The notes under the pieces are model-generated. The model was not told the origin of the DNA. It saw only the letters and a list, made by a program, of their open reading frames with translations, and ran no database searches. A program made the translations under genes and the position numbers. Below are positions 4,223 to 22,751 of a stretch of DNA of 64,000 nucleotides, in pieces (positions within the stretch are counted from its first letter, which is position 1; every line of letters starts with the position of its first letter). The stretch lies in the IMG/VR virus record IMGVR_UViG_3300027819_000006; one strand, given 5' to 3'. The stretch is from a virus. Its lineage: Duplodnaviria > Caudoviricetes.

Positions 4223-5160
4223 ATGATATGCCACAATTTATCTATTTCACATTCTCTTATTCTAATTAATATGTATCCATTTTTCTTTGCTAATTTATTT
4301 TTATATTCATCATTAATAACTCTTCCTTCTTGAATCTTATTTATGGGACCTTCAGTGTAACATATAGAGCAGCAGTGCCAATAACAACCATCTACTTCTA
4401 TAAGAATATTAAAATCGGGTAAATAAAAATCATATCGTTTCGTGTCTATTATAAATTCTTTTCTGTATTGTATATTTGAGTCTATAAAAATTTTTCTACT
4501 TTTAAATTAGGTTTAGTATTTGTAGTATTGCCAGTGAATTTTATTTTTCCCTGTCTGTGTTGTTCTTTAGTTAATTCACTTAATATTTTTTTAGTTTTAT
4601 CTGAATGTTTGTGCCCATAGTTAGGCTGTTCTTCTGTGCTTAACAGTGTTTGATAAGCTATTCTTTTGCCACTTTTATAGTTTTCATGAGCTGTTATTCC
4701 TGATTTAGTAGAAGCTTGTTTTACTCTATCATCGCTTTCGCTAGTTAATCCTGTATTCCAAGAAACATTTCCTTTTTTTAAATCGTCCTTTTTCACCCCA
4801 CTTTCTGTTACAAGATAATACTGCATCTTCAAATATAAACCTGTATTCTTTACTAGTCATGCTATGAAAATATTTTAAATGTCGGCTTAAATGTTTAAAT
4901 CTTTTTTCTTCTTTATCTTTTAAACATATCTGGCAAATAATATAATCAATATTTTCTATTCCTTCATAAGGTATTACATTTTTAATTCTGCATGGGATAC
5001 ACAAACCGCTTTTATGACTTCTTCTTAAAATATTACTGCATGTTTCAAAGTTTTTACATTTAACTTTTAAACACTGTATACAAGTCCCTCTTTTATTTTT
5101 TATACTTAAAAAATTATGACATGTTTCAAAGTTTTTACATTTTTTATCACTTTTTTGCAT
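4219..5160 (-). pseudogene. frameshifted homing-endonuclease-like gene (Zn-finger, NUMOD3-like, DUF559/Vsr-like PD-(D/E)xK); may be intact if the indels are sequencing errors
   Basis: three frames join at A7 (4773-4779) and A5T5 (4486-4495) runs; last frame gives YDFYLPDFNILIEVDGCYWH...EIDKLWHII*. Confidence 0.8.
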
Positions 5161-5181
5161 CTACTTTCTCCATAAATACAA

Positions 5182-5275
5182 AAGCTATTATCATATGGTA
5201 TAGACAATAAACAATGTTTATGTCTTACGATAATAGCTTCTGATTTATTAGAATTAGTAGTCTATTGTCTATACC
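5182..5275 (-). promoter_or_regulatory. structured HEG leader A (two interleaved inverted repeats)
   Basis: 5182-5192 pairs with 5229-5239 (11 bp perfect); 5197-5209 pairs with 5263-5275 (13 bp perfect). Confidence 0.65.
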
Positions 5276-5278
5276 AAT

Positions 5279-5288
5279 AATAAATATA
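5279..5288 (-). promoter_or_regulatory. putative late promoter (TATATTTATT variant)
   Basis: one-base variant of recurring TATATTTATA motif directly upstream of leader A. Confidence 0.4.
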
Positions 5289-5324
5289 CTTATAGAGAAA
5301 AATAATGCAATTCAGAGATCCTTT

Positions 5325-5387
5325 CTAAGATATTAATTGCTCTGTAGAAAATCCACAGCAGCCATACAAGCTAACAATTTTAGCCAT
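5325..5387 (-). pseudogene. orphan 5' end of carbamoyltransferase N-domain gene
   Basis: MAKIVSLYGCCGFSTEQLIS* resembles MKILGLYGAVGFNTE at 4222; ATG overlaps upstream TAA. Confidence 0.6.
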
Positions 5388-5653
5388 TAAATTCTAACTT
5401 CATAAACATATCTTTGCAATTCTTTTCTTTTCATCAATCTCTTAATTAATTTAGCTACTACTCTTCTATATCGCCATTCAAATAGCCAATCATATCTACT
5501 AATAAGTGATGTTTCGCATATACTGACTTCTTTTCTATTATTCATCGAATCATTATAGAATTTACTAGTATGAAATCTGACCACAACCATCAAATCTAGA
5601 TCTCCAGCATCACCAGAATATAGATATACATCAAACATTGAAAATCCTTTCAC
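5387..5653 (-). CDS. hypothetical protein
   Basis: 88 aa ORF coupled to neighbours. Confidence 0.6.
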   Translation of the reverse strand: MKGFSMFDVYLYSGDAGDLDLMVVVRFHTSKFYNDSMNNRKEVSICETSLISRYDWLFEWRYRRVVAKLIKRLMKRKELQRYVYEVRI

Positions 5654-6249
5654 ATGATTTCATCTACAAGACCTAAAGCCAAAGATTGTTTAGCATCAAA
5701 CCAAGAATCTCTTTTTAGTAACGATATGATTTTATTGACAGGCATTTTGCTATTATTTTTATAGAATGTAGTAATCTGTTTCATACACATTTCTAGCAAA
5801 TTCATATTATCTTTCAGTTCTTCGTAGCGTCCCCAATTAAATCCAACTAACTGATGAACTAGCATAAATGAGCTTGGTGTAATATATCTTTTATTGCAGC
5901 TACAACTAATTATAGTTCCTGCTGAAGCACAAACACCTTCTATTATAGAATAAATTGGAGTTTTGGTTCTTTTAATTTGATCTGCTACACTGAAAGCAGA
6001 TAATAAATCTCCACCAAAGCTTTGAATGTGTAACCAAATTGGAGTATGTTCAAAACTATCCGGTATATCTCTAGATAATCTTTCATTTCTTAAATTAGTG
6101 TCGATTTGCTTAATCTGTTTTATCAAAGATAGACATCTGTCAGAATCTACTCCTGAATAGAAATAGATATGGTTATCTATAGATTCAACAGTTAATTTTG
6201 GAGTTTCTGTAGTTGCAATAGGAGTAGCCTCTGCATCAAACTTAATCAT
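5650..6249 (-). CDS. clpP: ClpP-like serine protease
   Basis: LHIQSFGGD, GVCASAGT (Ser), MLVHQ (His), RDSWFDAKQSLALGLVD. Confidence 0.8.
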   Translation of the reverse strand: MIKFDAEATPIATTETPKLTVESIDNHIYFYSGVDSDRCLSLIKQIKQIDTNLRNERLSRDIPDSFEHTPIWLHIQSFGGDLLSAFSVADQIKRTKTPIYSIIEGVCASAGTIISCSCNKRYITPSSFMLVHQLVGFNWGRYEELKDNMNLLEMCMKQITTFYKNNSKMPVNKIISLLKRDSWFDAKQSLALGLVDEIM

Positions 6250-7148
6250 TGAGATTTTCTTTCTTCTAAATTGATCCAGTTATCTAAGAAATTAATGTGT
6301 CCCATATTGAAAGCTAAATTGAATCTTGGAGGTTCGTAAAGGTATTCTACTCCACAGTTAAAAAACTCTACTCCGAATTTCGGCACATATAATTCATTTA
6401 TTCTGTAATTCGGTTCTAAATGTTTTATTAGATCAGTTCTTACAAAGAATGCATCTGTACCAGCTATAGAGCACCCAACTAGAACATAGTCTTTTTTAAT
6501 AGCAATATCATTCAAAGCTTTCAATGAAGTTCCATAATACGCACTACCATCCCATACTGCATCATCATTTCTTGGCACAGTTAAAGATATATTTGGAGGA
6601 ATATGAGAATTGTATTCTATGACTATGATCTGAGGTTTGAAATTTAAAGCTTCAAATAGATAATAATCATTCCAATCAGTATCTATAGACAGTAGATCTA
6701 AATCTGAATCTTTAGCTTTTAAATATTCTAAAATTACATCATTTATATTATCTACTGTTACTTTTTTATATAGTACATCTAAATTTGCATTAGTAAATTT
6801 ATCTCTAATAAACCTTACTTTCTCTGAGTCAGAATCAAGCCATAATCCTTTCCAGCCTTTAAGATTCAGATATCTAGTATTATTCTCCATTCCATCACCA
6901 CAACCAAATTCTATGAATGTACCTTTGCTGATATCTAATATTTCACATAGTTTTTCTATAATGCCATCTTGATCATTCTGTGAATACACTTTGAAACCAA
7001 ATCTGTTCAGTTTATTAGCATATTCTGATGATTTAATTAGAGATTGCCATAGCTTATATCTTTCAATTTTAGATATTTCTAAAACATTCTTCTCTAAAGA
7101 TATGATTCTTTTAGCTAAATTGTTTAAGTAATCTACATCAAGATTCAT
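6246..7148 (-). CDS. SAM-dependent methyltransferase, FkbM-like
   Basis: YSQNDQDGII, FIEFGCGDG, LSIDTDWND, PQIIVIEYN. Confidence 0.75.
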   Translation of the reverse strand: MNLDVDYLNNLAKRIISLEKNVLEISKIERYKLWQSLIKSSEYANKLNRFGFKVYSQNDQDGIIEKLCEILDISKGTFIEFGCGDGMENNTRYLNLKGWKGLWLDSDSEKVRFIRDKFTNANLDVLYKKVTVDNINDVILEYLKAKDSDLDLLSIDTDWNDYYLFEALNFKPQIIVIEYNSHIPPNISLTVPRNDDAVWDGSAYYGTSLKALNDIAIKKDYVLVGCSIAGTDAFFVRTDLIKHLEPNYRINELYVPKFGVEFFNCGVEYLYEPPRFNLAFNMGHINFLDNWINLEERKSQ

Positions 7149-8953
7149 TTATTTTCCTTTGCTAAAATATAATTATGCAACACTAAAATATCTATCTTGC
7201 TATTAATAAACATTTTAATAGCATCTTCTGGTGTTTCGATTACTGGCTGATCTAAACCATTAAAACTCGTATTTAACAGCATTGGAACTTCTGTCAGTTC
7301 ATAGAATTTCTTGATCAGTTTATAGTATAGTCTATTATTTGTTTCATCAACTGTCTGTATTCTAGATGTATTATCTATATGAATTACTGCAGGCACAGAC
7401 TCTGGTTTTAAGCATTTAATAGAAAACAGCATGAATGGAGATTCTATATTGCAATCAAACCATTCTGCTGCATGTTCTTTCAAGCAAGAGGGTGAAAAAG
7501 GGCGGAAAAATTCTCTATGTTTAATTTCTCTATTAATAAAATCTTTTACAGTTATAATTCTTGGATCAGCTAAAATAGATCTATGTCCTAATGATCGAGG
7601 GCCGGCCTCGCTACCATTTTGAAACCATCCAACAATTTTAGTCTCTGACAAATATTTTGCCACAGTTTCGCATAAAGAATCTTCATCTTTGAACTTAGTT
7701 ATTTCTATTCCTTTTAATTTATCTTTATATGCAGTTAAACTTTCTTTTATATCTTCTTCTGTATAAGTGATTCCACCTTCAAATATTTCTCTATTGCTGT
7801 GTTCTTTCTTTGGTAATTCATTATTAACTAACTCATTCTTCTTATTCTTTGTCAGTTTATCTGATAAAAATAGAGCTGCTCCAATAGATAGACCATCATC
7901 TCCACAAGCTGGTGCAATGAAATAGTTTTTGAACTTACATTCTTTCAATATTCTACCATTCATTGTGCAGTTCAGAAATGTTCCACCTGAGAATGTTATA
8001 TTTTCTGTTACGTTGTGCACTGAATCATAAAGCTGGTTGACAAAATTGATGACAGAATTTTCCAATATCTTCTGAGCAGTTGCAGCTATATTCTTATTTA
8101 GATCATTATTCCAATCTTCTTTTTTCAGCCAGAATGGATCTACTTTGCTACCCTCTTTTTTGAGCTGAGGATAGAATACTCTTGAGTCGGGAATCTTTTT
8201 TATACCAGCATCAAATAGAGTCTCTAAATATAAATCATTTCTTAGAGGTACAGCTTGATCAAATACAAAAGGATATATTAATTTTTCAGCAATTTTAGAA
8301 GGAGTGCCATAAGCAGCAAGAGCCATCACACTGCCAGCTTTAGCCAAACTGGGCGCAAATGAGAGAAAATCGCATATCTGCCCATAATAAGATCCAAAAA
8401 AGAAATCAGATCCTCTTCTTAGTGGTCTGAATATTTTTAGGTCATCATTGAAATAATAGACAGAGTGATTGTTAGCTATATTATCTGAAAAATCACAAGA
8501 GAATGAAACACATTCTTTATATGGAGACATGTAGTAAGAATAGAAAGAATGAGCAAAATGATGATCTACATGAAAAGCTTTTACAGTCTTGTCTCCAATG
8601 TGGAGATTAAAGAGACCTGCGGCTACTTGCCCAACATTATTATAGAAACTGATATAATCTTCAAAACTATACTCTATTCCATTATCATTTGTCAAGCTTA
8701 TTTCATGTTTCGATTTATCAAATAGTTCTTTGCCTTCATAAGAATCAGCAAACCAGTTAACAATAGCAGCTAAATCTATGTCCTCCCACTTTAAATTAGC
8801 TTTTTTGAGAACATATTTTATACATTCTTTGCTGATACCTCTTTCATACTTATTTTTAGTCAATCTCTCATGAGCAATATAAGCTAATAACTTGCCATCT
8901 CTAACAAGACAGCAACTGCCTCCGTGAGAAAAATTTATTCCTAAAACTAGCAA
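7145..8953 (-). CDS. full-length carbamoyltransferase (NodU/CmcH/TobZ family)
   Basis: GINFSHGGS, HERLTKNK, DHHFAH, SGGTFLN, GDDG, EAGPRSLGHRS, FRPFSP, NTSFN; start likely TTG 8953 after AAGGAA. Confidence 0.92.
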   Translation of the reverse strand: MLVLGINFSHGGSCCLVRDGKLLAYIAHERLTKNKYERGISKECIKYVLKKANLKWEDIDLAAIVNWFADSYEGKELFDKSKHEISLTNDNGIEYSFEDYISFYNNVGQVAAGLFNLHIGDKTVKAFHVDHHFAHSFYSYYMSPYKECVSFSCDFSDNIANNHSVYYFNDDLKIFRPLRRGSDFFFGSYYGQICDFLSFAPSLAKAGSVMALAAYGTPSKIAEKLIYPFVFDQAVPLRNDLYLETLFDAGIKKIPDSRVFYPQLKKEGSKVDPFWLKKEDWNNDLNKNIAATAQKILENSVINFVNQLYDSVHNVTENITFSGGTFLNCTMNGRILKECKFKNYFIAPACGDDGLSIGAALFLSDKLTKNKKNELVNNELPKKEHSNREIFEGGITYTEEDIKESLTAYKDKLKGIEITKFKDEDSLCETVAKYLSETKIVGWFQNGSEAGPRSLGHRSILADPRIITVKDFINREIKHREFFRPFSPSCLKEHAAEWFDCNIESPFMLFSIKCLKPESVPAVIHIDNTSRIQTVDETNNRLYYKLIKKFYELTEVPMLLNTSFNGLDQPVIETPEDAIKMFINSKIDILVLHNYILAKENK

Positions 8954-8969
8954 ATATAATTCCTTTCTA

Positions 8970-9311
8970 TCATAAACTAAAACTTTCTCCGCAGCCACAA
9001 GATGATTTAGCATTGGGATTAATTACTGCAAAGCCACTACCATCTAGTCCATCTTTATAGTCTAATACTGATCCCACTAAGAATAACAAACTTTTATTGT
9101 CTATTATAACTTCGACTCCATTTTCTTCTATTTTATTATCATCTTTTTCTATACTTTCTTTGTGCATAAATGACAACTTATAATTTAGTCCGCTACACCC
9201 TCCCCCAACTACAGCTATTCTTAATCGATAGTCGGCAGCCTCTTCATTTCCAAACTCTTTTTCAAGAAGCTCTTTAATTTTACTTGCTGCTTTTTCAGTT
9301 GCAGTTATCAT
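8970..9311 (-). CDS. iscA: A-type Fe-S carrier (IscA/ErpA/HesB family)
   Basis: LRIAVVGGGCSGLNY, NPNAKSSCGCGESF. Confidence 0.93.
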   Translation of the reverse strand: MITATEKAASKIKELLEKEFGNEEAADYRLRIAVVGGGCSGLNYKLSFMHKESIEKDDNKIEENGVEVIIDNKSLLFLVGSVLDYKDGLDGSGFAVINPNAKSSCGCGESFSL

Positions 9312-9520
9312 TTCTTAACTTCTGTTTCAGTTTTCTTTTTAGAATGTTTCTCTTTCAGCACATTGATGAACTTGTCTAGATCATTGCTGAACTCTTTCAA
9401 TCCATCTCTTGCTGATTCTAAATGTGATTCTACTATGTCTGCAGCAAGTTTCTTGTTCTCCATAAGCTTGTTAGCTATAGCTGTTATTTCATCAAGTAGT
9501 TCTGCAAATTTTTCTTTCAT
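9308..9520 (-). CDS. hypothetical coiled-coil protein
   Basis: 70 aa helical ORF, ATGA overlap with iscA. Confidence 0.6.
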   Translation of the reverse strand: MKEKFAELLDEITAIANKLMENKKLAADIVESHLESARDGLKEFSNDLDKFINVLKEKHSKKKTETEVKK

Positions 9521-9537
9521 TTTGATATTCTCCTTTT

Positions 9538-9738
9538 TTAAATTTTGCTACACTGGCATCCAATTGTCATAAGAGTGTTTAAATCGCAAGAACATTTATT
9601 GTTACTGAAATCTATTTTAATTAAAGCTTTAAATATATTAAACATGCAATCCTGACATATATCTAATTCTTCTCTATTGCTATTTATTATTTTCAATCCA
9701 GACATCTGTAAAGCTGTATTGCATCGAGAGCAGATCAT
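9538..9738 (-). CDS. zinc-ribbon protein with C-terminal CxC-x4-L-x3-GCxC motif
   Basis: CSRC...CQDC; CSCDLNTLMTIGCQC. Confidence 0.65.
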   Translation of the reverse strand: MICSRCNTALQMSGLKIINSNREELDICQDCMFNIFKALIKIDFSNNKCSCDLNTLMTIGCQCSKI

Positions 9739-9765
9739 TTAGAATTCTCTTTGCAGATGAGCATG

Positions 9766-9948
9766 TCATTTTCTCCCTGTATTATGTTGTTTCATAGCAC
9801 TCAAGCATTTCATGCAAGCAAACCAAGTAGGTTTATTAAAATAGATTAGATTGATGAAAAATAGATCATTAATTTCCATTTCTTCTTTACAGATTAGACA
9901 TATGAGCTTATGAACATTCTCTACTAAGTTCATATCTACTTTTTGCAA
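9766..9948 (-). CDS. small zinc-ribbon protein
   Basis: CLIC...CMKC. Confidence 0.55.
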   Translation of the reverse strand: MQKVDMNLVENVHKLICLICKEEMEINDLFFINLIYFNKPTWFACMKCLSAMKQHNTGRK

Positions 9949-10418
9949 TTACATCCAAAATTAGTTAGCTGATCAATAGAGCAAGAACATTTTTTGATAC
10001 TACTGCATCCTAAATCTTTACCAGTATTTGGAGCATTAAAATCGAATCTTAAAGTATTCCATTTATCTTCAAGTTTCCAATCTATTTTTTGAAAATATTG
10101 TTTCACGAAATTTTCATTTTTAATGATATTATTAGAAGATTTTTCATCTGTATCTCTCATATGTTTTAATATATCTAAATTGAGAACTGATTCTTTTTCA
10201 CTACAGATTTTAGCTGTAGTGTATGTAGAAGAAGTGTTATTCTGTGTAGCTCTAAATTTAATAGCTTCTTTTAATGTTTCTTTAGCTGTAATACAGCATA
10301 TAGCACACATTTTCATTTCTAAAAATGATTTAATGGCAAATACATCATCTGACTCTTTGTTGCAAATTTCACATTTCCAAGTCGATGTAGATTTAAATTC
10401 TTTTTCTTCAGACATCAA
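9936..10418 (-). CDS. zinc-ribbon protein with C-terminal CxC-x4-L-x3-GCxC motif
   Basis: CEIC...CAIC; CSCSIDQLTNFGCNC. Confidence 0.7.
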   Translation of the reverse strand: MMSEEKEFKSTSTWKCEICNKESDDVFAIKSFLEMKMCAICCITAKETLKEAIKFRATQNNTSSTYTTAKICSEKESVLNLDILKHMRDTDEKSSNNIIKNENFVKQYFQKIDWKLEDKWNTLRFDFNAPNTGKDLGCSSIKKCSCSIDQLTNFGCNCKK

Positions 10419-10495
10419 ATTCCTCCATAAAATATAAAATTTTTAGACACTGTTATTTAGTTCATTTTTAATAAACAGACTGTCAAATTTAAAAT

Positions 10496-10813
10496 TTATT
10501 TTCTTAATAGTGTGTTTTTATTGCACTGACAGCCAGAGTTCAGTAGTGTTTCTAAATTGCATTTGCAGCCAGTAGTATGATTGGCTAAACTGTCAATAGC
10601 ATTATGCATAGCTGTTTCGTAACAAGAGATGCAAAAGTATTTAGCTTCATGAGACAAGAATAGTTCAGATTCTTTGTTGCAGATAGAGCATTTTTGCTTT
10701 TCTTCAGGACAGAATGTATGCCCGACAGTTTTCATAGAGCTGCAATAAGGAATAATAGATGTGATTGTTGGGCTATATGTAACGCAGCCAGGGTTGTTGC
10801 AGATTATGTTCAT
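10496..10813 (-). CDS. zinc-ribbon protein with C-terminal CxC-x4-L-x3-GCxC motif
   Basis: CSIC...CISC; CKCNLETLLNSGCQC. Confidence 0.65.
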   Translation of the reverse strand: MNIICNNPGCVTYSPTITSIIPYCSSMKTVGHTFCPEEKQKCSICNKESELFLSHEAKYFCISCYETAMHNAIDSLANHTTGCKCNLETLLNSGCQCNKNTLLRK

Positions 10814-10821
10814 ATGTATTC

Positions 10822-11973
10822 CTAAAATGTTATCTGATTAGAGTTTTTGTTTTCTTCAATGTGAGCTTCAACTTTTTTGACTTCACGAAGAACTTGGTCT
10901 ACGGAAATGGATTGTCCACAGTTATATTCAAAAGGGCACATCCAATTGCGAGAATTAGCGTCAATATCTCCAGTACCAGGACGACGACAATAAATTTCGG
11001 GACAGCTGTATTGATTTGTAATGTGAAAGTGGGGCGTGCCGTGCCACTGTTGTGCCCACCCCCAAACATGAGGGCTTGTTGAGGTCCACAGAACAAGAGA
11101 TGGCTTCTTAATTGCTGCCGAGAGGTGGTGGAGATAATTATCTATTGACAATGTAAACGCACATTTTTTATTTTCCATTAGTTGCAATACAGGGTTTAAA
11201 TCTGTAACTTTTACACTTTTCATTCCAGGTATATCTACATTAAATTTATTAGCATACACCTGTACAAACTCATATTTATTCCCCAATTTAGCAACTATTT
11301 CTGCCCATCTAGCAATAGAAAATGTTTTAAAGAATCTATAGTTTATTGGGCTCATCATATCACCGTCATTTAAATCGACACCAAGATGGCATAATATATA
11401 CGGTCGAGATAATCCTTTAATAAAACTATCCAGTTCTTTATTATATTGAGTAACTTTTAGCATGGGTGTATTTCCCAAGTACTCAAGCGACGCTATCTTC
11501 CCATAATGATACGCAACAAATGACTCTTTCGATTTTTTTAGTCTATGCTGATGTAATAGCTTATCTAGAGAAAAGCAATAATCTATAGAATAGCATCTAT
11601 CCCAATTATTTCTAATTATATCGTGTAAATTTTTATTTTCTGTCTTATATAGATCTCTATAACTTTTTAGCCACACTGGATGTTCTACATTTCCATTTTC
11701 GTCTTTTAGTAATGATGGATGATGTGGCCAACTATTTGGATTATCATTTATAGTTATATGATGAATGTTTTGTGTCTTCATAGATTCTGAGCACATAGGC
11801 CCAACTATAGCATTGTCCACAATAATTATTGGAGCAGAATGATTATTATCTAATTTTCTTAATTTCTGTAATGTTGCAATAAATGCGCTAGAAATTATTC
11901 TTGCACCGATTCCCCCATTTAATATTAAGAGATAATAAGTAGTATTAAGATCCAATTGTATTGGTTGATTCAT
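10822..11973 (-). CDS. GT-B glycosyltransferase, GT9 (heptosyltransferase)-like
   Basis: GGIGARI, SIDNYLHHLSAAIKKPSLVLWTSTSPHVWGW, C-terminal Cys cluster. Confidence 0.7.
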   Translation of the reverse strand: MNQPIQLDLNTTYYLLILNGGIGARIISSAFIATLQKLRKLDNNHSAPIIIVDNAIVGPMCSESMKTQNIHHITINDNPNSWPHHPSLLKDENGNVEHPVWLKSYRDLYKTENKNLHDIIRNNWDRCYSIDYCFSLDKLLHQHRLKKSKESFVAYHYGKIASLEYLGNTPMLKVTQYNKELDSFIKGLSRPYILCHLGVDLNDGDMMSPINYRFFKTFSIARWAEIVAKLGNKYEFVQVYANKFNVDIPGMKSVKVTDLNPVLQLMENKKCAFTLSIDNYLHHLSAAIKKPSLVLWTSTSPHVWGWAQQWHGTPHFHITNQYSCPEIYCRRPGTGDIDANSRNWMCPFEYNCGQSISVDQVLREVKKVEAHIEENKNSNQITF

Positions 11974-11974
11974 T

Positions 11975-13267
11975 TTACATTATCCTCCAACTTAAATCTA
12001 TCTCATCATCCCATACTCTTATTAATTTATAATTTAATCTTTTGGCTAATTTATTTTTTTGTTTATCTATTTCTATTTTTTCTTTCTGTACAATATTAAT
12101 GGGACCATTTGGATATCTTTCTGGTTTACAATGATAATATGTTCCATCTACTTCTATTAAAATATTATATTTTGGCAAATAGAAATCAAATAACCTTGAT
12201 TTTTTATTTTCCTCATCATATATTCTATATTGATGAATATAGTCTATATTTAAATTTTTTAGGTACTCTTTTAATTGTAATTCACCTTTAGTGTCTTTAA
12301 ATTTTTTATATTTACCATCTATAATATTTTGACAGTGAGTTTTACTCATTTTAGCTTTTGATTCTTCAGAGTGTTTTTGACCCCATCGAGGATTTTTTTC
12401 TCCAATTAAAGTTTTTCTATATTCAGATTGTTTTTTCTTTGTCTCATCAGTAACTATTCTGCCTATTTTACACTTAGACATTTTTTCTAAAGATTCTTCT
12501 GAATATACATTTGTTCTACCATCATGCCATGTTTTACCACCATTTTTATAAAATGTTTTTCTGCTCTCTGATATTTTCTTTTTTGTTTCTTCTGAGTGTT
12601 TATTAGTACCATTTTTTATTTTTGTTTCTTGAGCTTTAATATATGATTCTTTATAGAAAATTTGTTTTTTAGTACAATCACTCAATACATTTCTAAGATT
12701 TTCTGCAATAAAAGTAGAAACATTATATTTTTTTGAATACTCTTCTTTAGTAATACCATGATCAGATAGTAAGTGTTTAGAGTTTATACTTATTTTTATA
12801 TATTTTGTGAAACCTTTATTTTCATTAAAACACTCTTTACATATTACATAGTCTATGTTTTCTTTACCATTTTGATATAAATTTAAAATAAATTTACACT
12901 TTTCATGATCAGTATTTTTGTATATTTTTTTGTTACACACATCGCATATTTTACAATATTCAAAAGATTCAACATTACATGCTTTGCAAATACCTTTCAA
13001 ATTACTTGGACCAAGTCTATTATTACAATTTTCATTTATGCAATATTTAACTCTATTTTTAGTTTGTTTTTTTCTACATTTTTTACAATAGCCACTAAAA
13101 TTGTTACTTTTCAATTTTTCTTTACAGTTTTCTTCTTTACAATACTTTGCGTTTTTAATATCTTTGTCGCTATCTTTCTTTTGACAATCTTTACAAATGC
13201 CATATTTATTCATATTGCCTAATTTCTTTCCACACCCTTCTCTGCTACAATATCTTGCTTCTGCCAT
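11975..13267 (-). CDS. homing-endonuclease-like protein: Cys repeats, NUMOD3 repeats, DUF559/Vsr-like nuclease
   Basis: HSEETKKKIS, HSEESKAKMS; FDFYLPKYNILIEVDGTYYH...IRVWDDEI. Confidence 0.85.
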   Translation of the reverse strand: MAEARYCSREGCGKKLGNMNKYGICKDCQKKDSDKDIKNAKYCKEENCKEKLKSNNFSGYCKKCRKKQTKNRVKYCINENCNNRLGPSNLKGICKACNVESFEYCKICDVCNKKIYKNTDHEKCKFILNLYQNGKENIDYVICKECFNENKGFTKYIKISINSKHLLSDHGITKEEYSKKYNVSTFIAENLRNVLSDCTKKQIFYKESYIKAQETKIKNGTNKHSEETKKKISESRKTFYKNGGKTWHDGRTNVYSEESLEKMSKCKIGRIVTDETKKKQSEYRKTLIGEKNPRWGQKHSEESKAKMSKTHCQNIIDGKYKKFKDTKGELQLKEYLKNLNIDYIHQYRIYDEENKKSRLFDFYLPKYNILIEVDGTYYHCKPERYPNGPINIVQKEKIEIDKQKNKLAKRLNYKLIRVWDDEIDLSWRIM

Positions 13268-13291
13268 CTCTTCAGACCTCCAAAAATAAAT

Positions 13292-13400
13292 ATAGGGTAA
13301 AAAGAGATGGTTTAAACAAGACTGCTCAAGTTTAACTTTTTACCCTATTTTTGTTATATCAATTTTATGAACGAGCACAAAAGTCTTATTTAATCCATCT
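13292..13400 (-). promoter_or_regulatory. structured HEG leader B (two interleaved inverted repeats)
   Basis: 13292-13304 pairs with 13336-13348 (13 bp perfect); 13305-13327 pairs with 13373-13400 (about 21 bp, interrupted). Confidence 0.65.
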
Positions 13401-13402
13401 AC

Positions 13403-13412
13403 TATAAATATA
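13403..13412 (-). promoter_or_regulatory. putative late promoter TATATTTATA
   Basis: recurring intergenic motif upstream of minus-strand genes. Confidence 0.5.
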
Positions 13413-13466
13413 CTATTACTTTGCTCAAAAAACATTTCAATGATCAAATCTAACCTATATAAAAAT

Positions 13467-15014
13467 TTATTTTGCTGTTGCTTCTTTCTTAACTTCTGTC
13501 TCTACCTTCTTCTTCTTAGCTTCCATAACAGCTTTTAACAAATTATTTTTACTCATCTTCTCTGGCTCTCTGATTCCCATATCATCTACTACGTCTTCTC
13601 TGTCTACATGCTGTTTTCTTTGACTGTAGTTTACCCAAGCTAATAATTCATCTTTAGTTAGAGCTTTCAGAACATTTTCTACATTTTCTATCTGTTCATA
13701 TTTCTTGAATTGCTCTACTTCTAGCAACCCGAGATGGTTAGTTTGAGTCCCGTCTTTAATAACATACTCATCCCCTCTGCTTGCAGATAGTCTCCAGTCA
13801 AATTCAGCATCTTTTATTCCATCTGAAGTTGTGCAAATCCAGAAACAATTACCGCATACTTTACAATCATCTTTAAACATAATTACTAATGGAGACCAAG
13901 ATTTCATGTTTGTAAGCTGTATATATATTCCATCATTTCTATTGACTAACTTGTCAAAATATTCTGGAAGACTGACCATTGCAATTCCATCACATAATTT
14001 AGCTTCACCCTCATAAAATATTCCATATTTCGGACCTTCTTCGAATCCATGAATTAAGTTCATTGCATTATATACATTTGGATTATCTTTTGAGCAACAA
14101 ACATGGGGTATAACGAAAGAACCAGCAAATTTGCCTAATGTGCCTCCTACACAAACATTACCTGTAGTACATATACAAGTTCCCTGAAATAAAACTGTAT
14201 ATATGCAAGTTACAGCACAAATAACTCCTGCTGAATTTAATCTACATGTAATTACAAAACCCCCTGAAGCATCAATGCTACTCCCAAAAGTAGCTGCACC
14301 GATTTGACAAGAAGTAGTTCCAATAACAAGAGTTCCAGTAGAACATAAAATAGGAGTAGATATTTGTGTTGCTCCACATAATTGTGGTGAGGTAACAGAA
14401 GTGATAGCACACAAAGTAGAGCCTAAAGTTGCAGCATTTGGTACACAAACAACTCCTCCAGCAGTTATGCAAATTTGTGCTGCATTATTCGTTCCAATCT
14501 GCAATCCCGTATTTGTCTGTGTTCCAATGAATCCAGATGTAGACCCGGCACGTATGTCTACAACAATGTTGTCAGATGTATCTTGAACACGAATCCAGGC
14601 AGGACCAGCCGATGAGGCATGCAAAACTGCAGAGCCGACAGGGCTTGTAGGGCCAAAGCCGAATGACCCAGAATTTGAAAACTGAACTATAGCAGCTGCA
14701 GGAGCAGCAGAGTTAGAGATGATTAGAGAACCTGGAGCTCCAGTGCCTGACCCTCGTATAGCCCATTGAGCATTAGTATTTTTAATGATAATAGTAGAAT
14801 CACCATTTGCACTCGTACTTTCAAATATCGCATTACTGTTGTTAGATGACTGTAGATCGAAACAATATCTATTAGCATGATCTACTCCAACGTTGATCAC
14901 GCAGGCAGATAAGCCAGAAATGCTAAATGTGCCTGCATTATCGAGGACATTTCTCGTCACCTCGTTATTGCGAAAACTCAAATGTGTCGCGAAACTCAAC
15001 TTATTAATCTCCAA
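13467..15014 (-). CDS. probable virion fibre/spike protein with Cys-rich repeat region and C-terminal chaperone-like domain
   Basis: G/S/T/A-rich beta-type N-half; FVIPH...LIHG..EGP...EGEAKL..G...LPEYF..LV...IQLT segment typical of phage fibre C-termini. Confidence 0.6.
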   Translation of the reverse strand: MEINKLSFATHLSFRNNEVTRNVLDNAGTFSISGLSACVINVGVDHANRYCFDLQSSNNSNAIFESTSANGDSTIIIKNTNAQWAIRGSGTGAPGSLIISNSAAPAAAIVQFSNSGSFGFGPTSPVGSAVLHASSAGPAWIRVQDTSDNIVVDIRAGSTSGFIGTQTNTGLQIGTNNAAQICITAGGVVCVPNAATLGSTLCAITSVTSPQLCGATQISTPILCSTGTLVIGTTSCQIGAATFGSSIDASGGFVITCRLNSAGVICAVTCIYTVLFQGTCICTTGNVCVGGTLGKFAGSFVIPHVCCSKDNPNVYNAMNLIHGFEEGPKYGIFYEGEAKLCDGIAMVSLPEYFDKLVNRNDGIYIQLTNMKSWSPLVIMFKDDCKVCGNCFWICTTSDGIKDAEFDWRLSASRGDEYVIKDGTQTNHLGLLEVEQFKKYEQIENVENVLKALTKDELLAWVNYSQRKQHVDREDVVDDMGIREPEKMSKNNLLKAVMEAKKKKVETEVKKEATAK

Positions 15015-15027
15015 TAATTTATATAAA

Positions 15028-16005
15028 TTAACATATTATTCTCCAAACTAAATCTACTTCATTGTCCCAAACTCTTACTAATTTGTAACCTTGCATTTTT
15101 GCAAGTTTATTTTTAAAATCATCATTATACAGTTTGGCATCTATGTTTGAAGGTTTTCTTTCTGATCCTCCATGCCAATATCTGCCGTCTACTTCTATCA
15201 ACATATTATACTTCGGAAGATAAAAGTCATAAAATCTATTTTTAAAATCTATACTTGTTAACTTATATTGTTTAATATATTCTATATTTAATTCATCAAA
15301 ATGTTTTGCTACTGCTAATTCACATTTCGTATCTTTACTATTATTTTTGCAATTTTTAAAGTTGTCTATTGGATTATATTCACCAGCAGCTATTTTCTTT
15401 CTTCTTGTTTCTGACCCTTTTATACCACCATTTTTCAAGCTTTCACATGTATCTTTAGTGAGCCCTTTACACCAACAAGACTTTCCTTTATTGGCATTAC
15501 TTATTTTATTTTTTGTTTCTTGTGTTATTATTCTACCTTTAAGGGATTTAGACAATTTTTGTCTAGTTTCTATAGAAGCTGGTAATCTATTTTTACCTGC
15601 ATCACTTAATTTTTTAGAAGTAATAGCTTTTTCTTCATCTGTTCTATTATTTAATCCATTTTTTATAGCCAATTTTGTTTCTTTTGTTGATATTCTACCA
15701 CTATTTGTATTAGATATCATTTCTCTTGTTTTAAGAGAATGTTTTCTACCATAAAACGGATTATTTTCTCCAGTAGTACCTAATGAAATTGCTTTCTTGT
15801 GTGATTCAGATAAAGGTTTACCAACTTTACTTTTGCTTATCTTTTGTTTTGTTTTTTCTGATTGACCATTTATTTGAGTAGCAGTAAATATTAAATTATA
15901 GTCATAAAATGTTATTCTCATTTCTGCTTGAGACGTTTGATGCGATTTTGCATGCGTACTAGTAATAGTTTTAAAATATTTACCACATATTGGACATTGA
16001 GTCAT
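15028..16005 (-). CDS. homing-endonuclease-like protein (C2H2-like, NUMOD3, DUF559/Vsr-like nuclease)
   Basis: CPICGKYF..ITSTH, HSLKTREMIS, YDFYLPKYNMLIEVDGRYWH. Confidence 0.85.
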   Translation of the reverse strand: MTQCPICGKYFKTITSTHAKSHQTSQAEMRITFYDYNLIFTATQINGQSEKTKQKISKSKVGKPLSESHKKAISLGTTGENNPFYGRKHSLKTREMISNTNSGRISTKETKLAIKNGLNNRTDEEKAITSKKLSDAGKNRLPASIETRQKLSKSLKGRIITQETKNKISNANKGKSCWCKGLTKDTCESLKNGGIKGSETRRKKIAAGEYNPIDNFKNCKNNSKDTKCELAVAKHFDELNIEYIKQYKLTSIDFKNRFYDFYLPKYNMLIEVDGRYWHGGSERKPSNIDAKLYNDDFKNKLAKMQGYKLVRVWDNEVDLVWRIIC

Positions 16006-16039
16006 CTACTTTCTCCTCTTGCTAAAAGATTTTATATAC

Positions 16040-16114
16040 TGGAGCTCCTATAGAGCAAGCTATAGAATTAACTGCTGGCCAAGGCAGAGACTCCATTTAT
16101 TTCATTCAATTCTA
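16040..16114 (-). promoter_or_regulatory. structured HEG leader C (weaker example)
   Basis: 16040-16047 with 16087-16095; 16063-16069 with 16108-16114; internal hairpins. Confidence 0.4.
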
Positions 16115-16124
16115 CTATAAATAT
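16115..16124 (-). promoter_or_regulatory. putative late promoter (ATATTTATAG)
   Basis: TATTTATA core immediately upstream of leader C. Confidence 0.45.
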
Positions 16125-16133
16125 TCACCAGAA

Positions 16134-16835
16134 CTAACTTTTGTCTAATATCTCTTTTAACTCTATATTACTATTTGGTGCTTGAGACTGCCCAAGATCT
16201 GTTACTTTGTAGATTCCATTCTTTTGCATAATATTACCAGAACCAATCCAATCATAAAATTTGATTTTATATTTGCTTAAGTGTTCTGCAGCACATATTA
16301 ATTGTAATACTTCTTTATATCCTAAATGGTTTTTTATCCAATCAATCTTTTCTTTTTCTAAATAATTGTCAGTAATATATCCAAGCAAATTATCTATATT
16401 ACATCTACCATCAAAAATCATTTTTAAATCTTTTTCTACTATATAATCATCTTCATTTTTTAATTTCAAATCCATAAACCAATCTGTAAAATACATATAA
16501 GAATTAACTTTATCTAACTTCTCTTGTTCTATGAACCAGATATCTTTAAATGCTGCATATTTCCACACTCTGAATACTTGTACAATATTAGGGTGTGGAT
16601 GCTGCATAACAATATTCATAGCATTTGCTTCAGTTTTATCAGCAGTAATTTTAAGAACCCGGTCATTTCCGATATAAATTACTACTCCATAAGAACCAGA
16701 GTCTATGAATCTTAGTAAATCATATCCATCAGATTCTAATCTATCTAATACTTGTAGCATTTTGCCTTCTGAATAGTTGAATAATTCTTTAGCAAAAAGC
16801 ATTACTTTGTCTTTTGTTTTAACAGAAGAATCCAT
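16134..16835 (-). CDS. protein-kinase-like fold protein, paralogue K1
   Basis: GSGSYG, VLK, TEA, DWIGSGN, TDLG. Confidence 0.85.
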   Translation of the reverse strand: MDSSVKTKDKVMLFAKELFNYSEGKMLQVLDRLESDGYDLLRFIDSGSYGVVIYIGNDRVLKITADKTEANAMNIVMQHPHPNIVQVFRVWKYAAFKDIWFIEQEKLDKVNSYMYFTDWFMDLKLKNEDDYIVEKDLKMIFDGRCNIDNLLGYITDNYLEKEKIDWIKNHLGYKEVLQLICAAEHLSKYKIKFYDWIGSGNIMQKNGIYKVTDLGQSQAPNSNIELKEILDKS

Positions 16836-16836
16836 T

Positions 16837-17169
16837 TTAATTTTTACCTATTGTAAGCAATATATCATCTATAGTAGTATTTTCATCTAATGTTGATTCT
16901 ATTTCTGTAGCAAATTGAAACTCGCTAGTAGTTCTATTAACAGATATTTCTGCTTTGTCTACCAAATAGCCCTCAACTGTCAAATTATATGTAGTCAAAA
17001 GAATTCTCGGACCATCAGAAAAATCTTGGAGATTATTTTCGTCTGTTGCACTGTCAAATATAGCATAGAAATAGAAACCACCATCTGTCATTATATTTCC
17101 AGGCTGATATTGCTTCCAGATACGCTGCGAGAACAGATTGTTGCTATATTTTATTAGATTTTTTTTCAT
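16837..17169 (-). pseudogene. orphan duplicate of the 3' third of the gp15-like gene
   Basis: about 73 of 102 aa identical (manual alignment) to C-terminus of 17963..18769. Confidence 0.85.
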
Positions 17170-17285
17170 GTTCTAATATTATATCATCAATGGTTATATT
17201 GCTATTTTTATAGAAATTCAATCTAAACTTCATCATTAAAGAATTACAATATATTTCTGCTGATAAACTTTTATTAATCAACTGT

Positions 17286-17828
17286 TCAAGATTTGGAGTA
17301 TATCCTTTTATTTCTTCTATCATCAGTATCTTTAGTGAGACCATCAATCCAAGTCTTTCCGCCATTTGCAAAAAATTTTTTACGTGATTCAGACATGTTG
17401 TGTCTAGCTTTGTCTGACATTTTTCTACCCTTTAAAGCTTTAGATATTTTTTCTCCAAAACTTTTAGGTCTTTTCGTTCCTTTTCTTTTTCTATTACATT
17501 CTATAAGTATAGCTTGAGTTCTGGGATGCATTTTTCTACCTTTTTTGCTTTTAGAAATTTTTGCTCTATGTTCCTTAGAAAGTTTTCTGCCCTTATTAGC
17601 TGCTGATATTTTCTTTTTGTGTTCTTCTGTAATTTTGCAACCTTTTCTAGTCATAGAATGAGCATGAAAAGAGCAGCGGACATTTTCTCCTATTGTCTGC
17701 ACATTACATCCTTCTTCTATACAATGATGAACTATTTTGTCTCTACATGGTTTGCAAACAGTTCCTCCAACATGAATAGTTTTAGCTTGCAATTTATTTA
17801 TTCCACATTCTGAACATAATTTACTCAT
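17286..17828 (-). pseudogene. truncated HEG (Cys N-terminus and NUMOD3 repeats, no nuclease domain seen)
   Basis: ITEEHKKKIS, LSKEHRAKIS, MSDKARHNMS; stops after GGKTWIDGLTKDTDDR. Confidence 0.65.
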
Positions 17829-17838
17829 TTATATCTCC

Positions 17839-17928
17839 ATAAAATAAAAAGCTGAATAGATCGGTCTGCAATGAATTATAATTCAGCAGCTATTCAGCTT
17901 CCTATTTTATGTATCATTGCCAACCGAT
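17839..17928 (-). promoter_or_regulatory. structured HEG leader D (two interleaved inverted repeats)
   Basis: 17849-17859 with 17890-17900 (11 bp) plus 17839-17846 with 17903-17910; 17860-17874 with 17914-17928 (13 of 15). Confidence 0.65.
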
Positions 17929-17930
17929 AT

Positions 17931-17940
17931 TATAAATATA
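17931..17940 (-). promoter_or_regulatory. putative late promoter TATATTTATA
   Basis: recurring motif. Confidence 0.5.
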
Positions 17941-17962
17941 AATGAACGAGATAAATATGTCA

Positions 17963-22196: not shown

Positions 22197-22751
22197 TCAA
22201 TAAGGATTTTGGGAATCGTGCTCTATTTCATTATTATTTTCATCAATATTAGATCTAGGATTGAAGACATCTTGTCTTACACTATAAGCTTTTAATAAGA
22301 CTGATACTTTTCCCTGCGGGACACCAAAAAAGAATTTAGGTACACCGGCATAGTTTATTTCGAAAAAAGCTCCGTCATATTCTAAATAGTCACCCACTTT
22401 AGGATCTATACCTAATTCTGTCATTCTGTCTTTGTGTGCGCTTACTTCAATTGTGCGAGGGCTTTCTGTTGTAAATGCTCCAGTAGTATTTTCTACTCTG
22501 TCTAGCATTACCCATGCATAGAACATCACTGGCTGTCTAGATATTTTCTTTTCTGCCTCTCCATAGATATCATTACCATCTGTTAAAGTTCTATCAATCA
22601 TCCAATAATTAAGATTTTGCAATTGTACTATTTCTAATAGAGAAGTATTAACATAGTTCACATAAGCCATGGTGCGAGCATCAAAAAATAGAGAATATTT
22701 AGGATCTGACGTTGTAGAAGAAAAAAGCGAAGCCATTATATTATTCTCCAA
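22197..22751 (-). CDS. gp14: neck / head-completion protein (T4 gp14-like)
   Basis: DIYGEA..K, PKVGDYLEYDGAFFEI; between gp13- and gp15-like genes. Confidence 0.55.
   Translation of the reverse strand: MENNIMASLFSSTTSDPKYSLFFDARTMAYVNYVNTSLLEIVQLQNLNYWMIDRTLTDGNDIYGEAEKKISRQPVMFYAWVMLDRVENTTGAFTTESPRTIEVSAHKDRMTELGIDPKVGDYLEYDGAFFEINYAGVPKFFFGVPQGKVSVLLKAYSVRQDVFNPRSNIDENNNEIEHDSQNPY

What the first reader, a model, noticed from the sequence alone, without database searches (positions are those of the whole stretch)
5182..17940. Recurrent promoter plus pseudoknot-like leader upstream of homing-endonuclease genes
Seen: four intergenic regions of about 75-110 nt (5182-5275, 13292-13400, 16040-16114, 17839-17928) differ in sequence but share one topology. 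Each has two interleaved inverted repeats in a1-b1-a2-b2 order (stems of about 11-21 bp in A, B and D; 7-8 bp in C), with a small local hairpin between b1 and a2. The TAT(A)TTTAT motif abuts b2, and a GGAG RBS plus the HEG start lies just beyond a1. Conserved topology without sequence conservation suggests selection on structure. Established: T4 HEGs are silenced by simple RBS-sequestering hairpins, and some nucleases (IscB, HEARO) have an associated structured RNA. Inference: a new cis-regulatory switch, ribozyme or nuclease-bound RNA that travels with this DUF559-like HEG family.
Basis: partly seen in the sequence, partly recalled or inferred. Interest (0 to 1): 0.85.

Follow-up and report, generated by a model that had tools for sequence, protein, structure and literature searches.

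The report
Two-hairpin RNA leader before phage nuclease genes
Several selfish nuclease genes of an uncultured 272-kb groundwater phage carry their own promoter followed by an RNA leader with two interlocked hairpins, one terminator-like; it probably limits how much nuclease is made and elaborates a control known from phage T4.

Summary
Region C is marginal.

On the transcribed minus strand each leader reads:
- a -10 box, TATATT(TAT);
- 6-7 nt later, the 5' arm of stem S1, at the predicted +1;
- the 5' arm of S2, then a mini-hairpin;
- the 3' arm of S1, directly abutted by the 3' arm of S2;
- a U-run, GGAG and the start codon.

The stems are 10-22 bp and unrelated in sequence between copies. 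Only these three of 107 window genes show the design. Shuffles give about 0.2 interleaved pairs against 3-5 observed.

I found the same design four more times in this genome, once before a TnpB gene, and twice in a second groundwater phage. It was absent from about 137 other loci of the same nuclease family.

G.U pairs favour the coding strand 14:3, so selection acts on the RNA. No Rfam family matches.

Loop lengths exclude a true pseudoknot in three of the eight copies measured, so I read S1 and S2 as competing hairpins. S2 looks like an intrinsic terminator next to the RBS. S1 forms first. An outer helix often pairs the promoter region with the start codon, as in T4.

This is a new variant of T4-type control of homing-endonuclease genes, not a ribozyme or guide RNA. 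Earlier unchecked notes of this scan report similar leaders in other windows of this genome and in at least five other genomes.

The parts
5283..5288 (-). Leader A: -10 box TATATT (extended TATATTTATTATTGG)
   Evidence: The same 15-nt motif heads leaders E and F.
5286..5311 (-). Leader A: outer arm C, upstream of and overlapping the -10; pairs with the RBS/start region 5154-5178
   Evidence: RNAduplex gives -22.9 kcal/mol against a null of -9.2 +/- 2.6. It also appears in the MFE of the read-through form.
5260..5276 (-). Leader A: S1 5' arm, starting 6 nt after the -10 at the predicted +1
5229..5240 (-). Leader A: S2 5' arm. An extended, imperfect version spans 5226-5260 and pairs with 5161-5195, covering the RBS.
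5196..5212 (-). Leader A: S1 3' arm. Its 5' part also forms the mini-hairpin with 5213-5226.
5181..5192 (-). Leader A: S2 3' arm, followed by a U-rich tail, GGAG (5168-5171) and the ATG at 5160
4222..5160 (-). Nuclease gene A, broken into three frames: 4741-5160 (Zn-finger N-terminus), 4482-4832 (NUMOD3-like), 4222-4494 (Vsr/DUF559-like nuclease domain)
13407..13412 (-). Leader B: -10 box TATATT (TATATTTATAGTAG)
13382..13400 (-). Leader B: S1 5' arm
13336..13355 (-). Leader B: S2 5' arm
13305..13323 (-). Leader B: S1 3' arm. Positions 13302-13310 can instead pair with the start region 13264-13272 (9 bp, perfect).
13285..13304 (-). Leader B: S2 3' arm (gap 0 to the S1 3' arm), then a U-run, GGAGG (13277-13281) and the ATG at 13267
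11975..13267 (-). Nuclease gene B, 430 aa: Cys-rich N-terminus, NUMOD3, Vsr/PD-(D/E)XK-like C-terminus
16006..16135 (-). Leader C (marginal): -10-like AATATT at 16120-16125; an S1-like 12-nt, 83% repeat at 16103-16114/16063-16074; no abutting S2; fold not better than shuffles
15028..16005 (-). Nuclease gene C, 325 aa: NUMOD3 x2 plus a Vsr-like domain
17934..17945 (-). Leader D: outer arm C, including the -10 box TATATT (17935-17940); pairs with the RBS/start region 17825-17836
17907..17928 (-). Leader D: S1 5' arm (core 17914-17928), starting 6 nt after the -10
17890..17911 (-). Leader D: S2 5' arm, overlapping the long form of the S1 5' arm by 5 nt
17860..17881 (-). Leader D: S1 3' arm (core 17860-17874); its inner part forms the mini-hairpin
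17838..17859 (-). Leader D: S2 3' arm (gap 0) with a U-run, then GGAG (17835-17838) and the ATG at 17828
17286..17828 (-). Nuclease-related gene D, 180 aa: NUMOD3 only, nuclease domain missing

Best explanation
The leader is a cis-acting RNA expression-control module that sits in front of selfish nuclease genes: NUMOD3/Vsr-like homing endonucleases and at least one TnpB. The host is an uncultured T4-like jumbo phage from groundwater.

Shown:
- A phage promoter of the -10-only class (TATATTTAT) fires so that the transcript begins at the first base of stem S1.
- S1 (15-20 bp) and S2 (10-22 bp) are interleaved, and their 3' arms abut.
- S2 ends in a U-run directly upstream of the RBS, so it looks like an intrinsic terminator.
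- A mini-hairpin competes with S1.
- In about half of the copies an outer helix pairs sequence upstream of or overlapping the -10 with the RBS and start codon.

Inferred:
- S1 and S2 are alternative, not simultaneous, structures.
- S1 forms first on the nascent chain. It keeps S2 from forming, so RNA polymerase reads into the nuclease gene and the RBS stays open.
- When S2 forms instead, plus the mini-hairpin and in some copies an extension over the RBS, transcripts terminate or are poorly translated.
- Read-through transcripts from upstream genes carry the outer arm and are translationally silent, as for T4 gene e and I-TevI.
- The net effect is low nuclease expression, driven only from the cassette's own promoter and probably late.
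For: Real and specific structure:
- z-scores run from -3.1 to -7.7.
- Interleaved pairs number 3-5 against about 0.2 in shuffles.
- Only A, B and D of 107 window genes score 29 or more.
- None of 661 control ORFs in other loci scores 22 or more.

Conserved geometry with unrelated sequences, in eight copies measured plus a ninth, J, seen:
- The -10 ends 6-7 nt before S1 in 8 of 8.
- The 3' arms abut (gap 0-4 nt, mostly 0).
- Own-arm pairing is 97-100% against 48% between leaders.
- Outside the promoter and RBS there is no sequence similarity.

Selection on RNA of the coding strand: 14 G.U against 3 A.C.

S2 is terminator-like: a T-run of 4 or more follows S2 in every copy, against 19% of 104 control genes. 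A run of 5 or more occurs in 6 of 8 against 3.8%. The tail resembles the hairpin plus U-run after the major head gene (46406-46435).

S1 forms first: P(S1) is 0.88-1.0 in nascent RNA that ends at the S1 3' arm.

Bistability: at equilibrium S2 wins in A, D, H and J, S1 wins in E, F, G and I, and B is about 50/50.

Outer helix: -20 to -23 kcal/mol against a null of -7 to -9 in A, E and I, and moderate in D and H. Predicted RBS accessibility rises from 0.07 to 0.37 (D) and from 0.10 to 0.51 (E) when the transcript starts at the cassette promoter.

Precedent: RBS-sequestering hairpins with internal late promoters are known for T4 e, soc, 49, I-TevI/II/III, Aeh1 mobE and T4 segB (PMC3014915).

The design precedes unrelated nucleases (TnpB) and recurs in a second phage.
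Against: - There is no transcript evidence. Only groundwater DNA runs hold this phage, so the promoter, the +1, termination and translation effects are all predictions.
- S1 and S2 share no nucleotides. Their exclusivity is steric: certain only where the linker is 0-5 nt (D, E, F) and merely likely elsewhere.
- No input signal was found that would decide between S1 and S2. Upstream context changes the S1 probability only in H.
- The equilibrium preference differs between copies, which fits no single simple switch logic.
- The stems are AU-rich and the S2 loop is large, which is atypical for strong intrinsic terminators.
- Several nuclease genes of the same phage lack the leader.
- Covariation in the strict sense, across alignable orthologues, could not be tested. 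No close relatives exist in the collections.
Confidence: 0.6

Rival explanations
1. The two stems form at the same time as an H-type pseudoknot. This would be the functional unit of a ribozyme, or of an RNA bound by the nuclease as a guide or scaffold, like the IscB/HEARO or TnpB omega RNAs.
For: The stem order is interleaved. In A, B, G and H the linker between the two 5' arms is 17-29 nt, long enough in principle to run along both stacked helices. One copy precedes a TnpB gene.
Against: - The 3' arms abut, and in D, E and F the linker that must span 29-37 bp is only 0-5 nt.
- No nucleotide outside the promoter and RBS is conserved, unlike ribozyme cores or guide scaffolds.
- Rfam finds nothing, including HEARO and group I introns.
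- The same design precedes protein-guided nucleases that need no RNA.
- From general knowledge, TnpB guide RNAs derive from the 3' end of the element, not from the 5' leader.
Confidence: 0.05
2. The leader is a stand-alone small RNA gene. Transcription from the TATATT promoter normally stops at S2 and its U-run, giving an RNA of about 95-110 nt with its own function. The nuclease is made only by leakage.
For: The promoter sits at a fixed distance from S1, and S2 with its U-run looks like a terminator. S2 is the equilibrium structure in A, D, H and J.
Against: S1 forms first on the nascent chain in every copy, which would prevent termination. There is no sequence conservation that could specify a trans target. 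The RBS and start codon always follow within 0-20 nt.
Confidence: 0.1
3. The long helices are processing or stability signals rather than a switch. S1, flush with the 5' end, would protect the cassette's own mRNA from 5'-end-dependent decay. The rod of more than 40 bp formed in read-through RNA (outer helix plus S2) would be an RNase III site, and the U-rich tail an RNase E site. Cleavage would cut nuclease expression off from upstream transcripts.
For: S1 starts at the predicted +1 in 8 of 8 copies. The read-through forms of A and D fold into long, nearly continuous duplexes. Aeh1 mobE mRNA is processed at an RNase E-like site (my recollection of Gibb and Edgell 2007, which is cited in PMC3014915).
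Against: This does not explain why the two helices must be interleaved with abutting 3' arms. The host and its RNases are unknown, and nothing here tests cleavage.
Confidence: 0.1
4. The repeats act at the DNA level, as cruciform or recombination sites that move the cassette (like PeSL promoter-terminator cassettes) or as binding sites for the nuclease. A further possibility is that they are by-products of template switching during double-strand-break repair.
For: Most pairs are Watson-Crick, so the repeats also exist in the DNA. PeSL cassettes in T4-type phages combine a stem-loop with a promoter and mediate gene shuffling (PMC4122927). I-TevI binds an operator at its own promoter (cited in PMC3014915).
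Against: - Non-Watson-Crick positions are G.U on the coding strand 14 times and A.C 3 times, as expected for RNA and not for DNA.
- The copies share no sequence that could support homologous recombination or a common binding protein.
- The fixed placement between +1 and the RBS, and the U-run, point to a transcript-level role.
Confidence: 0.08

Closest known systems
T4-type translational control by an RBS-sequestering hairpin with an internal late promoter (T4 genes e, soc, 49; I-TevI, I-TevII, I-TevIII; Aeh1 mobE; T4 segB). Reference: PMC3014915.
   Same: This is a T4-like phage, with a gp20-type portal, a gp23-like head protein and an RNA ligase. The nuclease genes have their own -10-only promoter. 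In A, D, E, H and I a helix pairs sequence upstream of or overlapping that promoter with the RBS and start codon, so only transcripts started at the cassette promoter should be translatable.
   Different: An additional pair of long interleaved hairpins lies between +1 and the RBS. Their 3' arms abut and S2 carries a terminator-like U-run. The T4 examples are single hairpins. The outer helix is not significant in B, F, G and J. The late class of the promoter is inferred, not shown.
Transcription attenuators with alternative terminator and antiterminator hairpins (trp-type leaders, riboswitch expression platforms)
   Same: There is a promoter-proximal leader, a hairpin plus U-run just before the coding region, an earlier-forming competing helix, and a small third hairpin that competes with that helix.
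   Different: The competing helices share no nucleotides, so exclusion is steric, through interleaving. No ligand pocket, leader peptide or binding-protein site is conserved, and no signal is known. Termination has not been demonstrated.
PeSL composite promoter/stem-loop cassettes of T4-type phages (PMC2839356, PMC4122927)
   Same: Both are small regulatory cassettes that combine a promoter and a stem-loop and are associated with variable, mobile genes of T4-like genomes. This phage also has a repeated TTTAC(A/T)-N17-TATATT promoter class that resembles the PeSL promoters.
   Different: PeSLs are conserved in sequence between copies and are proposed to act through recombination. Here the stems differ completely between copies, lie downstream of the promoter, and show RNA-type G.U asymmetry.
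Similar leaders noted earlier by this scan in other genomes (e1-3281309, e1-3510070, e1-3721453, e1-3268322, e1-4810106). These are AI notes, not publications.
   Same: A promoter plus interleaved or competing helices in front of several unrelated selfish nuclease genes of uncultured phages or archaea; one helix is terminator-like or holds the RBS.
   Different: They come from different genomes and differ in sequence and helix number. I did not examine those loci, so any relationship is unknown.

Membership tests
T4-type RBS-sequestering hairpin with internal promoter | A helix pairs the Shine-Dalgarno sequence and/or the start codon with upstream RNA | tested here: met
   Met in A, E and I (-20 to -23 kcal/mol against a null of -7 to -9) and moderately in D and H. 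B uses a different partner, 13302-13310 with 13264-13272. Not significant in F, G and J.
T4-type RBS-sequestering hairpin with internal promoter | The promoter lies within or downstream of the 5' arm, so the gene's own transcript lacks that arm | tested here: met
   By sequence position only: the outer arm lies upstream of or overlaps the TATATT box. Promoter activity itself was not tested.
T4-type RBS-sequestering hairpin with internal promoter | Long transcripts are not translated and short ones are | not testable with these tools
   Only predicted RBS accessibility is available: 0.07 to 0.37 in D and 0.10 to 0.51 in E. No RNA or protein data exist.
Terminator/antiterminator attenuator | A hairpin immediately followed by a U-tract, upstream of the coding region | tested here: met
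   A T-run of 4 or more follows S2 in all copies against 19% of controls; a run of 5 or more occurs in 6 of 8 against 3.8%. The simple terminator scan did not call them, because its loop limit is 3-8 nt.
Terminator/antiterminator attenuator | The antiterminator shares nucleotides with the terminator stem | tested here: not met
   S1 and S2 use separate nucleotides. Exclusion would be steric, through abutting 3' arms and short linkers.
Terminator/antiterminator attenuator | A sensed signal (ligand, ribosome on a leader peptide, protein, tRNA) | tested here: inconclusive
   There is no conserved sequence and no consistent leader ORF by inspection of the sequences printed. Upstream context matters only in H.
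H-type pseudoknot | Two interleaved stems | tested here: met
H-type pseudoknot | Loops long enough to cross the grooves, so that both stems coexist | tested here: not met
   The gap between the 3' arms is 0-4 nt. In D, E and F the linker between the 5' arms is 2, 5 and 0 nt but would have to span 29-37 bp. In A, B, G and H it is 17-29 nt and cannot be excluded by length alone.
Described RNA families (Rfam 15, including HEARO, group I/II introns, riboswitches) | A covariance-model match at or near the gathering score | tested here: not met
   No hits at gathering thresholds over the whole window. At E<=1 there are only three microRNA-precursor look-alikes on hairpin D, at 24-26 bits against cut-offs of 57-90.
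PeSL promoter/stem-loop cassette | Sequence-conserved stem-loop plus promoter, repeated across the genome | tested here: not met
   Only the 9-17-nt promoter motif is shared between leaders.
Free-standing homing endonuclease genes (the proteins downstream) | A nuclease domain plus DNA-binding modules, in multiple diverged and decaying copies between phage genes | tested here: met
   NUMOD3 plus Vsr/DUF559/PD-(D/E)XK-like domains. Nine or more paralogues lie in the window, several broken or truncated. Homing activity itself was not tested.

The most novel reading that the evidence does not exclude
The interleaved S1/S2 leader is a distinct, portable class of RNA governor for selfish nuclease cassettes. 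It is defined by architecture alone: the 5' end sits flush in S1, a terminator-like S2 abuts it, and an optional outer helix covers the start codon. It serves homing endonucleases and TnpB alike. In this reading it acts as a true switch that reads a signal, for example whether the RNA starts at the cassette promoter, or a late phage factor or host RNase. The similar leaders noted by this scan in several other uncultured phage and archaeal genomes would be further members.
Probability: 0.35. Interest if true: 0.75.

Novelty: new variant of a known kind. Interest (0 to 1): 0.55.

Why it matters
Homing endonucleases and TnpB-type nucleases are dangerous to the genomes that carry them, and little is known outside T4 and Aeh1 about how they are kept in check. 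Here an uncultured jumbo phage uses one architectural solution for unrelated nuclease families, maintained purely by base-pairing. If it works as proposed, it is a compact control element that does not depend on sequence: a promoter, a 5'-terminal helix, a steric anti-terminator and a start-codon lock. It could be tested in reporters and reused in synthetic biology. It would also be a useful marker for finding mobile nuclease cassettes in metagenomic phage genomes.

Tried and rejected
- Close relatives for classical covariation: none found. Megablast against phages gave no hit. IMG/VR by protein and by exact leader sequence gave nothing. The 5.8-billion-protein search returned only the same genome at high identity.
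- The one metagenome scan and an IMG/VR scan with the nuclease-domain alignment gave 160 loci of the family. Only L059 has the leader.
- Sequencing runs: only groundwater DNA runs hold the phage and there are no RNA runs. Laying contigs showed the same phage at low depth and no allele lacking the nuclease genes, so the cassette borders could not be defined.
- The simple sigma-70 and terminator scan was uninformative in this AT-rich DNA.
- Hypothesis that read-through RNA prevents S1: rejected, because upstream context changes P(S1) only in H.
- Hypothesis of one consistent thermodynamic preference: rejected.
- Leader-peptide idea: only B has an AUG near +1, and A, E and F have UUG. The pattern is not consistent.
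- The TnsA-like nuclease gene at 27613-28563 scored 24 on interleaving, but its leader does not fold better than shuffles (z +1.31).
- I did not build a covariance model. The copies cannot be aligned and the structure is not nested.


Full report
CONTEXT. The window is AT-rich (about 30% GC) and all its genes lie on the minus strand. It encodes a T4 gp20-type portal interrupted by intein sequence, a gp23-like major head protein and a gp63-like RNA ligase. The head protein is only 36-38% identical to the nearest known phages: Flavobacterium 'immuto', Microcystis Mel-JY01 and uncultured huge phages. The same DNA is a 271,885-bp contig from groundwater metagenomes. No whole genome is held for it, and no close relative exists in the phage, IMG/VR or metagenome collections.

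THE GENES. The four ORFs downstream of the flagged regions belong to one family with NUMOD3 motifs, and two of them (B, C) also carry a Vsr/DUF559-type PD-(D/E)XK nuclease domain.
- B (430 aa) and C (325 aa) look intact.
- A is broken into three frames.
- D has lost its nuclease domain.
The window holds at least five more paralogues or fragments: 21259-22182, 22736-23365, 25219-25596, 55618-56563 and 34983-35867. It also holds a TnsA-like nuclease gene at 27613-28563.

OBSERVATION. On the transcribed minus strand, leaders A, B and D read in this order:
- the TATATT(TAT) box;
- the S1 5' arm;
- the S2 5' arm;
- a mini-hairpin;
- the S1 3' arm, then the S2 3' arm;
- a U-run, GGAG and the start codon.

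The RNA folds far better than dinucleotide shuffles: z = -6.15 (A), -3.08 (B) and -7.69 (D). Region C has one weak repeat in the S1 position and no abutting S2, and its fold is no better than chance (z +0.65).

Interleaved pairs number 3 (strict) or 5 (relaxed) in the window, against 0.2 and 0.27 in shuffles. With a score that requires abutting 3' arms, only A, B and D of 107 minus-strand genes reach 29 or more, and the next best is 24.

THE MOTIF IS A GENERAL PROMOTER. TATATTTA is enriched in intergenic DNA on the coding strand and precedes many genes. Two classes appear.
- One has a conserved TTTAC(A/T) -35 box 17 nt upstream. It resembles T4 early and PeSL promoters and precedes small ORFs.
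- The other has only the extended -10, TATATTTAT(T/A)A. It precedes the nuclease genes and also genes next to the head gene, at 50280 and 46343.
That the second class is the late class is my inference.

MORE COPIES. Following the paralogue P0002 and walking along the contig, I found the same design four more times in this genome.
- E: L044:9869-10000, perfect 16- and 14-bp stems.
- F: L044:2805-2937, before a frameshifted Cys-rich/NUMOD3 gene.
- H: L126:13031-13161, before a 382-aa NUMOD3 protein.
- I: L126:16601-16726, before a 390-aa TnpB (Pfam Cas12f1-like TNB, 3.3e-17).

A scan of 80 metagenome loci that encode the same nuclease domain gave one clear case, G at L059:1430-1567. It belongs to a different phage, with a 154-kb contig that is also groundwater-type. 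That phage shares few genes with this one in the regions compared and has a second copy, J, at L127:8131-8262.

By contrast, 56 of 57 homologous nuclease ORFs in those loci, all 661 control ORFs and 80 IMG/VR loci lack the design. Several paralogues in the window lack it as well. The leader is therefore a feature of a narrow phage lineage and of several nuclease families, not of the DUF559-like family as such.

GEOMETRY (eight copies):
- The -10 hexamer ends 6-7 nt before S1 in every copy, so S1 begins at the expected +1.
- S1 is 15-20 bp and S2 is 10-22 bp.
- The gap between the two 3' arms is 0 in five copies and 1-4 nt in the rest.
- The linker between the two 5' arms ranges from 0 to 29 nt.
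- Pairing is 97-100% within a leader and 48% when arms are exchanged between leaders.
- Apart from the promoter and the RBS region, the leaders share no sequence.
- A T-run of 4 or more follows S2 in every copy, against 19% of control genes.
- Non-Watson-Crick positions in the stems are G.U on the coding strand 14 times and A.C 3 times. The expected frequencies are similar, so this points to selection on the coding-strand RNA rather than on DNA.

PSEUDOKNOT OR COMPETITION. With the 3' arms contiguous, both helices could coexist only as one stacked rod. The 5'-arm linker would then have to run the whole length of that rod (25-37 bp). In D, E and F this linker is 2, 5 and 0 nt, so both helices cannot coexist there. 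In A, B, G and H (17-29 nt) length alone does not exclude it. Because the architecture is shared, I take competition to be the common property.
- Constrained folding shows both states are stable, with no uniform winner. The free-energy difference (S1 minus S2) ranges from +6.5 to -12.7 kcal/mol.
- In nascent RNA that ends at the S1 3' arm, S1 is formed with probability 0.88-1.0 in all nine copies.
- At equilibrium S2 dominates in A, D, H and J, S1 dominates in E, F, G and I, and B is balanced.
- The mini-hairpin overlaps the start of the S1 3' arm and extends S2 into a long hairpin.

THIRD LAYER. Sequence upstream of or overlapping the -10 is complementary to the RBS and start region. The pairing is strong in A, E and I and moderate in D and H (also visible). 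This is the T4 arrangement described for genes e, soc, 49 and I-TevI, and for the free-standing mobE and segB (PMC3014915). Read-through RNA is translationally locked, while RNA started at the internal promoter is not. Predicted RBS accessibility agrees for D and E, weakly for A, and not for B or C.

MECHANISM (inferred). The cassette brings its own promoter. S1 folds first, holds the S2 5' arm in its loop, and lets the polymerase pass the U-run with the RBS open. Where S2 forms, co-transcriptionally if the mini-hairpin delays S1 or later by refolding in A, D, H and J, the transcript terminates or its RBS is crowded or covered. In A, for example, S2 extends over the GGAG. Upstream read-through RNA is silenced by the outer helix. 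Which step dominates, and whether anything regulates the S1/S2 choice, is unknown.

Rivals that I cannot exclude are a separate small RNA that ends at S2, and a role of the long duplexes as RNase III or RNase E sites or as a 5' stabiliser. A ribozyme or nuclease-bound RNA, and a purely DNA-level role, are unlikely for the reasons given under the rival explanations.

KNOWN OR NEW. RNA-structure control of homing-endonuclease genes in T4-like phages is established. The interleaved pair of long helices is not in Rfam and did not turn up in my literature searches. Its distinguishing features are abutting 3' arms, a 5' arm flush with +1 and a terminator-like second helix, shared by HEGs and TnpB without sequence conservation. 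I rate it a new variant of a known kind.

Earlier notes of this scan describe further copies in other windows of this genome; I verified E and one TnpB copy. They also describe comparable leaders in at least five other genomes, which I did not examine.

LIMITS. Everything rests on sequence and folding predictions. There are no transcripts, no orthologous alignments and no cultured host.

Noticed in passing
window 59889-63617 (-): The T4 gp20-type portal gene is 1242 aa long. It carries intein splicing-domain matches (residues about 290-696) and an HNH-like segment, so it is probably an intein-containing portal protein.
   Followed up: partly
window 28970-29054, 29355-29439, 33355, 37755-37833, 39095-39231, 42640-42713, 43181-43248 (-): A promoter cassette of about 50 nt is highly conserved and repeated: (C)CTTTAC(T/A)TTT-N-ATTGTTTATATTTAA. 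Its -35 region (TCCTTTA) is complementary to the downstream RBS (TAAAGGAGA), for example 43185-43194 with 43233-43242. It looks like PeSL-type early promoters that double as anti-RBS arms.
   Followed up: partly
window 35868-35962 (-), upstream of 34983-35867: A NUMOD3 protein gene (294 aa) has a simple version of the control. The TATATTTATTATAAC promoter sits in the loop of a hairpin whose 3' arm is the RBS (AAGGAGCTT); z = -4.45.
   Followed up: partly
window 27613-28563 (-): A TnsA-like (PD-(D/E)XK) endonuclease gene follows a TATATTTATAATAG promoter but has an unstructured short leader.
   Followed up: yes
window 43983-46289 (-): The 768-aa ORF just downstream of the major head gene contains a stretch (about 45207-45473) weakly similar to the Vsr-like nuclease domain of the HEG family. 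Pfam finds nothing. It may be a fusion or an ancient insertion.
   Followed up: no
window 3104-4234 and 7145-9013 (-): Two Nol-like carbamoyltransferase genes lie here, with a ClpP-like protease (5650-6249) and an Fe-S biogenesis-like gene nearby. This is an unusual auxiliary gene set for a phage.
   Followed up: no
window 55253-56563 (-): Another paralogue of the nuclease family appears frameshifted: 55814-56563 plus the nuclease domain at 55618-55842 in another frame. Its leader, 56564-56649, is a nested multi-branch hairpin, not an interleaved one (z -2.66).
   Followed up: partly
L126:16727-17899 and L126:13162-14310 (same genome, outside the window): A TnpB gene with no obvious IS200/IS605 partner sits among phage glycosyltransferase and topoisomerase genes behind an S1/S2 leader with a 12-bp outer helix. 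A NUMOD3 protein with a weak DUF1064 match lies 2.4 kb upstream behind another such leader.
   Followed up: partly
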